This document shows positions 5,364 through 36,646 of a DNA stretch of 64,000 nucleotides, in pieces. The notes beneath the pieces were generated by a model that saw only the letters and a list, made by a program, of their open reading frames with translations, made no database searches and was not told the origin of the DNA. The translations under genes and the position numbers were made by a program. The stretch's first letter is position 1, and every line of letters begins with the position of its first letter. The DNA comes from Octopus vulgaris (taxonomy: Eukaryota), in assembly GCA_951406725.2 (NCBI GenBank), contig OX597814.1, positions 96,038,001-96,102,000 of the forward strand, read 5' to 3'.

Positions 5364-5441
5364 TATTCTATGTTTGGAATATCTGGTGAAATGCTAACTA
5401 TGAGGATACGGTCCAGATTATTCAAGTCCATTCTACATCAG
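5364..5441 (+). CDS. ABCB1: ABCB1-like exon 2 (YSMFGISGEMLTMRIRSRLFKSILHQ)
   Basis: ttttag / gtaagt, 78 nt phase 0; matches P-gp [26 protein letters not shown]. Confidence 0.93.
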
Positions 5442-5577: not shown

Positions 5578-5646
5578 ATAGGTATATATTTTCAGAAATG
5601 TACTTGCATAGCAAGTGACCTGATCTAAGATCCTGTGCTGGAACGA

Positions 5647-5947
5647 AAACAATTGCAGCGTGGAAAGTGTTTATAGTCCATTTAAGAAACACACAAAAAG
5701 CGTTAGATTAACTTCAACATTTAAATTCAATTTGCCAAAATATTTTCATCATTTTGAGACCGCAACCTGTTCACTGACAAAATTCCATGCTGTTCGGAGA
5801 TGCAGCACGGAATTTTGTCAGTGAACAGGTCATGGTCTCAAAGAGACGAAAATATTTGGCAAATTAAATTTAAATGTTGAAGTGAATCTAATGGTTTTTA
5901 TGTGTTTCTTAAATGGCTTATAAACACCTTCCACGCTGGAATTGTTT
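5647..5947. repeat. Foldback element (~146-bp arms, 10-nt spacer) with a hammerhead-like motif in each arm
   Basis: 5647-5792 is an imperfect reverse complement of 5803-5947; GTGAACA-stem-GAAA-ATATT motif at 5811-5865 (+) and 5729-5784 (-). Confidence 0.85.
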
Positions 5948-6654
5948 ATATATTTTCATGTTTAGCAAAATCAGTTGAAATAACTTTTGGATTGATATTA
6001 TGCAATGGCATAGAAAGAGTTCTCTCTCCCTGGGAGCGAATCCATTTTGGTACCCCACCTTAATTAACAGGTATTGTGGAGTCAGAGAGAATTTTGTGCT
6101 TCTCCACACTAGTGCTTGCAAGCAATTTCCATATGCTTTTGAAACAGAAAAGAAGTGAAAAAATTGAATGGCTTTGAATTTAGTAACATATTTTGTGTTA
6201 ATCAAACACAACACCTATTCCTTCTAAGCATATTAATTATAATTTGCCATTATGTATTTCCTAAAAGCCTCTTGTCAAGTGTCATGTTCTAGGTTCACAA
6301 AATTTCATAACCAACTAGCTGAAAATTAGCTAATTGGAATTAGTAAATTTAAATTATTTTTACTTGTATCCAAAAGCAAATCCTAAGCATTTCACAAGAC
6401 TTTCTCCTTACCCTTTCTCTTTATCATTACTTGTTTGGAGAATCTATAACATTTATAAATAAATGCCTTGAATAATGCATTATAAAGTATGCAAACCATT
6501 GACTATGTAGATCATAAATTATAGAAATACAGTGGTAGAGAGCGTAACTTTTGCAATAACCTTGAAGGTTCTAACTGTGTTTCACTCATGTTTTGTAGGT
6601 GGAAAGAGTGATAACATTCTCTTGAAATGTATGCATAAAATTTTACATTTACGA

Positions 6655-7079
6655 ATTTGTGTTGCCAGATTCCTGATATGAAGTTGTGTGTTGAAACAAA
6701 TATTGTATTTTGGTATGGTCATTTTTTTTTTGCCAAATAAGCACATGCGCTGTATATTTGTTCTTCACTTGTTTATTACTGTTTTTATTTTAACTCATGT
6801 CCATTGTCTGGAAATCTTTAATCACACATCTGTGACCTCCTTAGTGACACTTTCTATCTGCTTATTCCATATTCTGGAATGGAATAAGCAGAGCAAGAGC
6901 ACACAGGAAGACGGAAGGTGTCACTGAGAAGGTCACAGATGTATGACGAAAGATTTCTGGATAATGGATATAAGTTAGAATAAAAATAGTGATAAATGAG
7001 TGAAGAACAAATACATAGTGCATGTGTTTATTTGGCAAAAATAAATAAAAAAAAATGAATATCTCAAAATACAACAATA
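6655..7079. repeat. Foldback element, same family as 54050-56205; degenerate hammerhead cores
   Basis: Inverted arms centred near 6875; TGTCACTGAGAAGGTCACAGATGTATGACGAAAGATTTC matches the motif at 56041-56086. Confidence 0.8.
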
Positions 7080-33011: not shown

Positions 33012-33208
33012 CATTATTTACATTTGACGGATATTTGTCCATATTTTGTTTGTTGTTTACACAACGTTTCGGCTGATATAACCTCCGGCCTTCATCAGAT
33101 GTATTGGGGAAATTTCGAACCTAGGTTCTCATTCCTAAGGTATTTTTCGATCTTCTTCTTCTTCTTCTTCTTCTTCTTCTTCTTCTTCTTCTTCTTCTTC
33201 TTCTTCTT

Positions 33209-33239
<31 letters not shown>

Positions 33240-33568
33240 ATATTATTATTATTGTTATTATTATTATTATTATTCAGGTCACTGCCTGGAATCGAACTCG
33301 GAATCTTGGGGTTAGTAGACCGCGCTCTTAACCCCAATATTCCGAGTTCGATTCCAGGCAGTGACCTGAATAATAATGATGATGATGATAATAATAATAA
33401 TATCAAAAAATATCTTAGGAATGAGAACCCAGGTTCGAAATTTTCCCAAGACACCTGATGCAGGCTGGAGGATGTATCAGCCAAACGCATTAACAACAAA
33501 GATGAAAACAAATACCCGTCAAATGTAAATAATGCACATAATTCCTCATCTTTTAAATATACAACAGT
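33011..33568. mobile_element. Head-to-head foldback of a tRNA-headed element with a hammerhead-bearing tail
   Basis: 33011-33314 is an imperfect reverse complement of 33329-33534; B box GAGTTCGATTCC near the centre; internal (AAT)n/(AAG)n tracts. Confidence 0.85.
33058..33103 (-). ncRNA. Candidate minimal type I hammerhead ribozyme
   Basis: Minus strand TACAT-CTGATGA-A-GGC..GCC-GAA-ACGT-T-GTGTA: conserved core, stem I TACAT/GTGTA, short stem II, palindromic ACGT in place of stem III. Confidence 0.6.
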
Positions 33569-33889: not shown

Positions 33890-35075
33890 AACCTTATAAA
33901 TTTAAGGAAAAAACGGATATGATGTACGACTAAAAAATACGAATAAAAAATGTGAATAAATCCGGATAAAAACTACGAATAAAAATACGAAAAAATGGTT
34001 TAAAAGTATTAAAAATAAAAAGGAATATAAGTTTATACAAATAGATATTGACAATTATTATGCATCGATAAACGAGGTAGTACTTAGTAAGGCTTTAGTG
34101 TATGCTAAGAACAAAATAGGAATGACTATGGAGGAAATTAAGGTAGTCCAAGAGGCACGAAAATCTCTAATAAAATACAATAAATTATGGGCTAGAAAAG
34201 ATACCAGGGAGTACTTCGATGTACCCATGGGAACGCCGGACTCATTACAGGTGACTGATCTAGTAGGGATCTATTTACTTTCAGAATTAAATCTAGAAAA
34301 ATCAAAAGAAGAAAGCGGTTTATATAGAGACGATTTGTTATTAATAACTAAAAACTGTATAAAAAAGACTCTTGAAAATTATAAAAAGAAATTATATAGT
34401 TTTTTTTTCAAGCGATAAGGATTAGGAACTACGATTTATAAAGATCATTATAATGTTAACTTTTTAGATGCCAATTTGAATATTTCAACAGGGATAACAC
34501 AACCTTTCCACAAAATGAAAGGAAATTTGAAATATATAAACGCATACAGTAACCCCACCTCCATTAAGAAAACACTGATAGCTAATATAGGAACTACGAG
34601 AACTTCCTAAAGCATTCAACCTACTATAATGAAGCTTTAAAAAAGGCAGGATACAAGGACGAAATTATATTCTACAATAATAATACAAATAGTAACAATT
34701 ACACAAAAGATAATGCTAAATATTAAAGTAAACACAGACATGACATATATAGGATCTATATCGAATAAAATTAAACAAAGGATAGCGCAACACTTGTACT
34801 CATTTAAAAATAAGACATTAATGAACTCGACAGGCTTAAGTAAATATATTTGGAGCCTAAATTCTAAAAAGATTAAATATAAACTAAAGTGGGAGATAAT
34901 AAAGAAAACTAATTCATATAGAATAGGGAATAAGTTCTGTCTGCTGTGTACTCACGAATTCATGGAGATTTCATGGTCTAAAACAACATTGCTTAATGCT
35001 CAGGATGAAAGAAAAATTAAATGCAAACATCAGCTGAAGTGCTTAATTAATAAGTTTGGATTCTTAAGTAAATAA
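33890..35075 (+). mobile_element. Penelope-like element remnant (RT + GIY-YIG endonuclease)
   Basis: FIQIDIDNYYASI...FDVPMG...DLVGIYLL...GLYRDD...VNFLD, then YIGS...KQRIAQH...LSKYIWSL...KWEII...CLLCTHE; stops and deletions present. Confidence 0.88.
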
Positions 35076-35142
35076 ACAACAATTAATTTTAATAAATTAA
35101 AACTGAGTTATATCCTTTGAATCAAAGTTACTATTATATATC

Positions 35143-36646
35143 ATTGAAAGAAGGAATAATATGCCCTATCCATAAGGGAGGAAGCAGAGCAGATTCTAAA
35201 AATTATAGGCCTATCTCTCTGACCTCACACATTAGCAAAATCATGGATCGAATAGTCCGCAAAAAACTAATCATGCTCCTTGAAGAAAATGAATTCCTGA
35301 CTGACACTCAGCATGGATTTCGACCATGTAGAAGCTGTCTAACACAGCTCCTGCAACACTATGACTGGATGTTAAAACTAAATGGCTCAAGTGTGGATGT
35401 GATATATCTCGACTTTGCAAAAGCTTTTGATAAAGTCGACCATGATATGATCTGTCACAAACTGCGTGATCTCGGCATAGGCGGAAAACGTGGAGAGTGG
35501 CTGCACAACTTGAAAGATAGAAGGCAGGCAGTAGTGGCCAATGGAACCACCTCCAAGGAAACACAAGTAACAAGTGGTGTTCCACAGGGCACTGTCTTGG
35601 GGCCACTGTTGTTCATAGTGGCCCTTTCAGACATGCCCTCAGTTGCTATGATGGCCACCCTTGCTAGCTATGCAGATGATGCAAAAGTCTCAGACAATAC
35701 AAAACCCTGGAAATATTGTACATCTGCAACGGGAGTTGGATACAATATACAGGTAGGCTGAGGACAACAACATGCAGTTTAATGCAGGGAACTTCGAACC
35801 CCTGCGTTACCGGCAAACAAAGCTGAACGACATGCAGACTGGATATACTGGCCCGGGAAGAATTGCAATTCCTGAGTCAAAATCAATGCGTGACCTGGGC
35901 AATGACATGAGCAATGATGCATCTTTCCAAGTGCATATTGCCAATTTGGTAATAAAATGCATACCGCTAACTGAATGTATCCTCCGAACTTTCAGAACAA
36001 GAGAGAAGGAGACACTGATGGTCCTTTGGAAGACATTCGTCCTCAGCCGCTTGGACTGCTACTCCTAACTATGGTCACCACACAATATAAAGTTAACAGA
36101 AGAACTCGAAGCAATCCAACGAAGCTACACTAAGAAGATCGTCTCAATGCAACATATCAGCTACTGGGAAAGACTGAAAGTATTAAACTCTTCTCCCTGG
36201 AGCGATTTGCACTGATATACATCTGGAAAATCCTGGAGGGCCTTGTCCTGAATTTTGGCATTGAAAGTTACCCCAACAGTAGAACGGGGCGCCACTGCAT
36301 GGTGCCAAAGATCCCAACATCACCATCAAAATACAAGACCAGATACTGCAACAGCTTGGGTTTCAGAGGACCACAGCTCTTCAATATCCTTCCTAAATGC
36401 CTGAGAGACCTGCATGGTGTGGATGTGGGTTTTTTAAAACTAATCTGGATGTCTTCTTGTCAGGGGTTCCAGATGAACCTACCTCTCGGCAGGAAACACA
36501 GATGCGGGTAGCGGCGTCGAACTCCCTTGTTGACCAAGTGCACCTTTCAGAGATGGTTTCACATACTAGTGTAGCACATTCAGCGGTGGTGCCCCAGCAT
36601 GGCCGCAGCTTTCGGGCTGAAACATTTTTAAGGATTTAAGGATTTA
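35143..36646 (+). mobile_element. CR1-group LINE, 5'-truncated RT and 3' tail
   Basis: PIHKGG...NYRPISLTS...QHGFR...VIYLDFAKAFDKV...SGVPQGTVLGPLLF...YADD; frameshifted; ends in (TAAGGATT)-type repeats. Confidence 0.92.

What the first reader, a model, noticed from the sequence alone, without database searches (positions are those of the whole stretch)
5647..5947. Intronic foldback carrying a hammerhead-like motif with a G3:C8 compensatory core swap
Seen: both arms contain AATTTTGTCA-GTGAACA-G-GT(C/T)(G/A)(C/T)-GGTCTCAAA-..GA(C/T)-GAA-AATATT-T-(T)GGCAAATT. Stem I (TTTGTCA/TGGCAAA), GAAA and a palindromic AATATT at stem III are all correctly placed, but the core reads GUGAACA instead of CUGANGA. 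Established: positions 3 and 8 form a Watson-Crick pair in the active hammerhead, so G3/C8 preserves the pairing. Inference: a natural core variant that CUGANGA-based searches would miss. Stem II is decayed in both arms, consistent with CpG loss from an ancestral GTCGC/GCGAC.
Basis: partly seen in the sequence, partly recalled or inferred. Interest (0 to 1): 0.8.

Follow-up and report, generated by a model that had tools for sequence, protein, structure and literature searches.

The report
Octopus retroelement hammerhead with flipped core
This 350-base hairpin in an octopus transporter-gene intron is a back-to-back pair of decayed front ends of a Penelope-type jumping gene, whose family carries a hammerhead-shaped RNA motif with its key C-G pair flipped to G-C; the family motif likely still cuts RNA (untested), while this copy is predicted to be dead.

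Summary
The foldback and motif are real, and the G3:C8 swap is a family trait. The element (5595-5946, 12-bp target duplication, intron of an ABCB-type transporter gene) is two head-to-head 5' fragments of a Penelope-like retrotransposon (PLE) in an Octopus vulgaris-matching genome. Near-complete copies show pLTR, RT plus GIY-YIG ORF, pLTR. The exact G3/C8 20-mer occurs 6,323 times; no C3/G8 copy was among the rows listed. Copies restore stem II to GTCGC/GCGAC, with losses concentrated at CpGs. Two lineages 15% apart differ at 0 of 42 structural but 11 of 74 other positions. The sister family has C3:G8 and other relatives C:G or U:A, so G:C looks like a derived covariation. Limits: cleavage is untested; a G3·G8 mismatch sublineage also transposed; copy 5' ends mostly lie upstream of the cut site; this copy is CpG-damaged and 91% sequestered in the hairpin. 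Foldbacks are routine for PLEs: one 1 kb away belongs to a canonical-core family. Natural U3:A8 and engineered G3:C8 are published; my seven literature searches found no natural G3:C8, but three key papers were unavailable. The scan earlier noted an unsettled G3:C8-like motif in another genome.

The parts
5595..5946 (.). Whole insertion: two head-to-head 5' fragments (pLTR end plus ORF start) of a Penelope-like retroelement
   Evidence: full elements
5583..5594 (+). Target-site duplication, left copy (TATATATTTTCA)
5947..5958 (+). Target-site duplication, right copy (TATATATTTTCA)
5595..5792 (-). Long arm: element positions about +6 to +203, ending at the distal fixed 3' end
   Evidence: L001 minus 6-203
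5595..5646 (-). 'Tail' present on one arm only; it is ORF sequence between the two fixed 3' ends
5798..5946 (+). Short arm: element positions +1 to about +150; extra G at 5797 just before +1 (inferred copy of the RNA cap)
5814..5863 (+). Minimal type I hammerhead motif: stem I 5' 5814-5820, core GTGAACA (G3, C8) 5821-5827, extra G 5828, decayed stem II 5829-5847, GAA 5848-5850, palindrome AATATT 5851-5856, one T lost at the cut site, stem I 3' to 5863
5731..5781 (-). Second hammerhead motif (core 5774-5768), stem II decayed by CpG transitions
5913..5946 (+). First codons of the PLE ORF (ATG GCT TAT AAA CAC; MAYKHLPRC in full elements)
5364..5441 (+). Host exon upstream of the insertion (ABC transporter membrane domain); the intron runs from 5442 to about 8387
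6703..7074 (.). Context: foldback of another PLE-type family in the same intron; decayed here, its relative at 56046 has a canonical CUGAAGA core

Best explanation
The hairpin is a duplicated insertion of the 5' end of a Penelope-like retrotransposon, whose family carries a minimal hammerhead motif with a G3:C8 core that was likely kept by selection and would cut as a dimer, while this intronic copy is predicted to be inactive. Shown: the unit is the pLTR end and ORF start of an RT plus GIY-YIG element; copies end at two fixed points (about +150 and +208) and mostly reach back to near +1; foldbacks pair one long with one short arm; both arms share a family marker; G3:C8 is the family state and the sister family has C3:G8. 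Inferred: a capped, uncleaved RNA starting at +1 was reverse transcribed from two internal start sites, primed at staggered nicks in AT-rich DNA (12-bp duplication), and the two cDNAs were joined at their ends. In active elements the motif would fold stems I and II as a monomer, complete stem III through the AAUAUU palindrome of a second copy, and cut after U17, with G3:C8 positioning the 2'-OH of residue 8 as C3:G8 does, at a lower rate.
For: PLE identity: L203 has pLTR-ORF-pLTR with 98.4% identical 1.1-kb pLTRs, G3/C8 in both; L209 has a 1,025-residue open frame; Pfam GIY-YIG E 1.5e-5; 262 homologues at E<=1e-10. Family state: 6,323 exact G3/C8 20-mers against 227 N3/G8. With both sites free, 84 of the first 100 of 563 rows are G/C and none C/G. 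Selection: lineage A copy against lineage B majority differs at 0 of 42 structural and 11 of 74 other positions, Fisher p 0.005; the stem I A/G marker (57:47) keeps pairing; a real lineage A motif folds stems I and II as its minimum-energy structure. Covariation: sister family C3:G8, sister clade 100/99; metagenome relatives C:G, C:G, U:A; other octopus motifs 4 C:G, 3 U:A, 1 G:G, reversed control 0. Insertion: 21 of 27 independent foldbacks are long+short, 1 short+short, 0 long+long, 5 unclassed; arms agree at the A/G marker in 43 of 45; extra G in 22 of 34 non-templated copies reaching +1. Literature: two internal RT starts, both strands primed, C3G/G8C partial rescue in a PLE hammerhead (PMC11167929, parts 1-2 of 4 read).
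Against: No cleavage data. A G3·G8 sublineage, predicted dead, made independent insertions (15 of 19 motifs in the C16 loci fetched, with different 3' junctions) and includes ORF-bearing copies L123 and L137, so the pair is not needed for mobility. 5' ends show no peak at the cut site (+61): 48 of 64 arms start at or before +24, 16 scatter from +38 to +76, and three of these could be read as +61/62 but share stem I microhomology. The 11 non-structural differences include clusters that may be 7-8 events, which weakens p, and the structure was drawn from the same sequences. RNAcofold did not return the hammerhead dimer as its best fold. U17 is recalled as a poor cleavage base. The 'extra G' could arise otherwise than from a cap. 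Arm concordance could come from later gene conversion or from cDNA snap-back.
Confidence: 0.72

Rival explanations
1. Fossil ribozyme: same PLE origin, but the core decayed (C3G, then G8C by drift) and no longer cuts; the stems are kept for another reason, such as ORF-protein binding, or the promoter or splice signals that overlap them.
For: G3·G8 copies transposed; templates were mostly uncleaved; hammerhead mutants did not affect insertion in vitro in the anole element (PMC11167929, part 2 read); Naiads thrive without canonical hammerheads (PMC8557442, passages read).
Against: All 42 structural positions, core included, are unchanged between lineages 85% identical in the ORF; the youngest copies (97-98% identical) keep G3:C8; 3:8 states across families are Watson-Crick pairs.
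Confidence: 0.22
2. The foldback is a MITE (non-autonomous DNA transposon) and the hammerhead is a chance look-alike.
For: About 300-bp near-perfect palindrome, thousands of copies, AT-rich targets.
Against: 20 of 60 core-unbiased loci are single arms; the centre varies; one end carries a tail; duplications are mostly 10-14 bp; the unit runs into an RT plus GIY-YIG ORF; relatives carry hammerheads at the same place.
Confidence: 0.02
3. This intronic copy is a working, host-recruited ribozyme that cuts the transporter pre-mRNA.
For: One motif lies sense to the host gene.
Against: Stem II is broken, one U is lost at the cut site, there is no sense partner for a dimer, and motif bases pair with the upstream antisense arm with mean probability 0.91.
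Confidence: 0.02

Closest known systems
Minimal type I hammerheads in pLTRs of Penelope-like elements (Cervera and De la Pena 2014, PMC4209133; parts 1-3 of 4 and supplement passages read)
   Same: pLTR position, long stem II with G10.1-C11.1, extra base between 9 and 10.1, palindromic 15.2-16.2, no stable stem III, dispersed single and opposite-strand pairs; a U3-A8 core variant was reported in Schistosoma
   Different: 3:8 pair is G:C; the extra base is G where their consensus gives H; stem I is 7 bp; position 17 is U
Poseidon PLE of Anolis carolinensis, PAc (Frangieh et al. 2024, PMC11167929; parts 1-2 of 4 read)
   Same: Two adjacent internal RT start sites in the ORF 5' region giving a tail, AT-rich targets, priming from both strands, uncleaved RNA as template; engineered C3G/G8C partly active
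   Different: PAc has natural C3:G8 and its ORF starts at stem II; here the ATG is about 50 nt past the motif, the tail is about 55 bp, and the ORF has a CX3CX2C linker
Neptune/Nematis-type EN+ PLEs (Craig et al. 2021, PMC8557442; passages and supplement search)
   Same: RT then CX2-5CxxC linker then C-terminal GIY-YIG; tandem pLTRs, inverted 5'-truncated copies, one-sided tail, (TA)n bias
   Different: Clade not tested against named references; the 17-mer GTGAACAGGTCGC-type motif searched (13 nt) is absent from that paper's supplement
Natural U3:A8 hammerheads (Perreault et al. 2011, PMC3088659; section 8 read)
   Same: Natural covariation of the 3:8 pair
   Different: That section reports U3:A8 only, not G3:C8

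Membership tests
EN+ Penelope-like element | Single ORF with RT and C-terminal GIY-YIG endonuclease | tested here: met
   L209 1,025-residue frame with RT-type motifs read by eye; Pfam GIY-YIG E 1.5e-5, but no Pfam RVT hit; best homologue named RT-domain protein
EN+ Penelope-like element | Tandem arrangement giving pLTRs | tested here: met
   L203 pLTRs 1,118 bp, 98.4% identical; L123
EN+ Penelope-like element | Inverted 5'-truncated copies and a one-sided tail | tested here: met
   40 of 60 loci are foldbacks (13 are one re-amplified copy); 21 of the other 27 are long+short
Neptune/Nematis clades | CX2-5CxxC motif between RT and EN | tested here: met
   CQSNCAVC before the YIGET motif
Neptune/Nematis clades | Phylogenetic placement with named reference elements | not tested
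   Tree had no named Neptune or Nematis references
Minimal type I hammerhead | Stems I and II around the core, G10.1-C11.1 | tested here: met
   Family majority and lineage A fold; stem II is broken in both window arms
Minimal type I hammerhead | Literal CUGANGA core | tested here: not met
   GUGAACA; no C3/G8 among 100 listed rows in each
Minimal type I hammerhead | Watson-Crick pair between 3 and 8, U4 G5 A6 A9 kept | tested here: met
   G3 106, C8 103 of 109; covariation across families; exception is the G3·G8 sublineage
Minimal type I hammerhead | GAAA, palindromic stem III, UH cleavage site | tested here: met
   GAA AATATT T; columns 93-100% kept
Minimal type I hammerhead | Self-cleavage after H17 | not testable with these tools
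   No assay; copy 5' ends give no clear peak at +61
Rfam hammerhead families | Covariance-model match | tested here: not met
   0 hits at gathering score in the window, which also holds canonical-core minimal motifs; no hammerhead family at E<=10 on L203 1650-1950
MITE | Symmetric fixed termini, short fixed target duplication, no RT link | tested here: not met
Non-LTR retrozyme | Head-to-tail tandem units each with a hammerhead | tested here: not met
   Head-to-head at this locus; a tandem array of 8 units exists at L188

The most novel reading that the evidence does not exclude
This octopus family is the first natural hammerhead with a G3:C8 core, active and selected in thousands of copies. 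It supplies the third Watson-Crick state of the 3:8 pair in one genome (C:G, U:A, G:C), and with its G3·G8 sublineage and uncleaved, twin-ended insertions it is a natural test of whether Penelope elements need their ribozyme at all.
Probability: 0.45. Interest if true: 0.65.

Novelty: new variant of a known kind. Interest (0 to 1): 0.5.

Why it matters
The 3:8 base swap was the mutational proof of the active hammerhead fold. Nature was reported to use C:G and U:A; a high-copy natural G:C would complete the set and shows that CUGANGA descriptors miss whole families (over 6,000 exact motifs here). The role of PLE hammerheads is an open question, and one family with paired (G3:C8) and unpaired (G3·G8) lineages plus a very young C3:G8 sister makes it directly testable. 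The long+short arm rule and the extra 5' G give genomic support, in another clade, for the in vitro model of internal double initiation on uncleaved RNA. The window copy itself is an ordinary dead repeat.

Tried and rejected
Rfam gave nothing. A 3.4-kb tandem on C2 looked like a full element but is a local duplication. The RT and GIY-YIG remnants at window 33960-35075 belong to another element: they did not match the family's ORF-bearing loci except one unrelated stretch. I first read the clustered 5' ends as a splice junction (CTAAC...TTTCTCAG precedes +1); no shared upstream exon was found, so a start site with an added G fits better, though an intron there is not excluded. Sequencing runs: no RNA holder listed; the four runs laid were contigs, so they say nothing on expression, splicing or cleavage. 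Their loose-end letters show the GTGAACA core in three other coded organisms, not counted as independent proof. No hammerhead was found in 7 of 10 metagenome loci scanned with the relaxed descriptor, one giving only a weak C3/U8 hit on the opposite strand; many contigs are short. RNAcofold did not give the dimer. Literature searches for natural G3:C8 and for PLE or octopus hammerheads found none. Hammann 2012, Przybilski and Hammann 2007 and Lunse 2017 were not held and may report it; one supplement file of PMC4209133 was not searchable, and its figures were unseen. The count of 563 is far below, partly from extra CpG sites; I use it for proportions only.

Full report
Observation. The foldback is real: arms 5647-5739 and 5855-5947 are 90% complementary and the segment folds at -189 kcal/mol, z -28. 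Both arms hold the described motif. It lies in the intron 5442 to about 8387 of a + strand ABC transporter gene (the likeness to ABCB1/P-glycoprotein is my recall). A protein named Octopus vulgaris matches this genome at 100%, which identifies the organism by inference.

It is a high-copy repeat. The first look found 4,124 candidates, of which 40 were scored. Aligning 24 distinct loci gave a unit of about 208 bp with a variable palindrome centre and a tail of about 55 bp on one side. The window insertion spans 5595-5946 with a 12-bp duplication. Among the first 60 loci taken from 4,934 matches to a 21-mer downstream of the motif, 20 are single arms and 40 are foldbacks, 13 of them one copy re-amplified inside another repeat. 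That is not a MITE pattern.

It is the 5' end of a Penelope-like element. Copies that extend upstream carry an (ACAT)n-rich stretch. Copies that extend downstream run into an ORF beginning MAYKHLPRC. L203 is pLTR-ORF-pLTR with 98.4% identical pLTRs; L203, L204, L205 and L209 are 97-98% identical; L209 has a 1,025-residue open frame with RT-type motifs, a CX3CX2C linker and a GIY-YIG domain. These are the features given for Neptune/Nematis-type PLEs (PMC8557442, passages), but I did not test the clade against named references. Inverted truncated copies and one-sided tails are described there as typical. The same intron holds a foldback of another family (6703-7074) whose relative at 56046 has a canonical core, so the foldback itself is ordinary.

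The core swap is a family trait. The exact G3/C8 20-mer occurs 6,323 times. N3 with G8 occurs 227 times; the first 100 rows are G3 95, T3 4, A3 1, C3 0. With both sites free, the first 100 of 563 rows are G/C 84, G/T 7, G/A 3, T/C 3, G/G 2, C/C 1. Copies decay neutrally, so selection must be read between master lineages. Lineage A (L203) and the lineage B majority, 85% identical in the ORF, differ at 0 of 42 structural and 11 of 74 other positions, including a rewritten loop II (p 0.005; weaker if clustered changes are single events). A real lineage A motif folds stems I and II as its best structure; RNAcofold did not return the dimer.

Covariation across families. The closest relative, a very young octopus family (99% identical copies, ORFs to about 1,312 residues), has CUGAUGC at the same place before its ORF, with the same extra G and U17. 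It is sister to the G3 family at 100/99 support (26 rows, midpoint root, two long branches). Three of 14 metagenome relatives show motifs: C:G, U:A, C:G. In 961 kb of held octopus DNA, motifs outside the family were 4 C:G, 3 U:A and 1 G:G; 11 further 'other' rows were mis-binned family copies; the reversed control gave 0. G:C is therefore likely derived from C:G. Published: natural U3:A8 (PMC3088659 section 8; PMC4209133) and partial rescue by engineered C3G/G8C (PMC11167929; PMC8495972, one passage). PMC3884650 (passages) notes that G3-C8 is less active with C17 than with G17, so U17 may be permissive here; that is speculation.

Evidence against a needed ribozyme. A G3·G8 state occurs in 15 of 19 motifs in the C16 loci fetched, with distinct 3' junctions, in ORF-bearing L123 and L137, and in both arms of some dispersed foldbacks. 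Lineage A and most lineage B copies have C8, so G8 looks derived, yet it moved. Copy 5' ends lie mostly upstream of the predicted cut at +61: 48 of 64 arms start at or before +24, 16 scatter from +38 to +76, and three could be read as +61/62 but are ambiguous through stem I microhomology. This matches the anole PLE, where uncleaved RNA was the insertion template.

How the insertion likely formed. 3' ends cluster near +150 and +208. Of 27 independent foldbacks, 21 are long+short, 1 short+short, 0 long+long, 5 unclassed; 23 of 24 best-scoring foldbacks are long+short. Both arms agree at a roughly 50:50 marker in 43 of 45 loci. Of 34 copies that reach +1 without upstream template, 22 have an extra G, as the window copy does. 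I infer one capped RNA primed twice, at staggered nicks, from the two internal start sites. Snap-back of one cDNA with endonuclease resolution at +150, or later gene conversion between arms, remain possible.

This copy. A host transcript meets the antisense arm first; motif bases pair with it at mean probability 0.91. Stem II is broken, one U is missing at the cut site, and no sense partner exists. It is predicted dead; at most it is a long double-stranded intron RNA.

Verdict. New variant of a known kind: a PLE minimal hammerhead with a natural G3:C8 pair. Seven searches found no natural G3:C8 report, but three key papers were not held. An earlier scan note describes an unsettled G3:C8-like motif behind a PLE gene in another genome; I did not test it. 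Activity is inferred, not shown. Interest 0.5.

Noticed in passing
window 6703-7074 and 56000-56200: Foldback and single copy of another PLE-type family with a canonical CUGAAGA core; its ORF start resembles that of the young sister family
   Followed up: partly
window 33020-33540: Another foldback with a canonical CUGAUGA minimal hammerhead (core at 33098, minus strand) and an ACGT palindrome
   Followed up: partly
window 33960-35075: Decayed RT-like and GIY-YIG (Pfam E 0.023) remnants of a different PLE, followed by a LINE RT fragment at 35096-35761
   Followed up: partly
L211, L212 (G000 C19, C17): Very young sister PLE (99% identical copies, intact ORFs) whose hammerhead has A9C (CUGAUGC) and a non-palindromic AGAACU stem III; L215 also has C9 with U3:A8
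   Followed up: partly
L237, L238, L250 and 10 more of L227-L286: One foldback copy with identical junctions and flanks makes up 13 of 60 loci: it rides inside another amplified repeat
   Followed up: partly
L188 1759-3023 (G000 C28): Head-to-tail array of 8 short units, each with the G3:C8 motif, separated by (TA)n: retrozyme-like and suited to dimer formation
   Followed up: no
G000 C16, about 1.3-7.2 Mb (L123-L135, L138-L140): Dense cluster of intron-retaining and ORF-bearing copies, mostly G3·G8, with independent 3' junctions, suggesting local hopping
   Followed up: partly
L092, L115, L128, L149: U3:A8 minimal hammerhead-like motifs in other octopus repeats
   Followed up: no
L203 1700-1720 and equivalent: Branch-point-like CTAAC, pyrimidine tract and AG overlap the inferred start site just upstream of stem I; intron not confirmed
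   Followed up: partly
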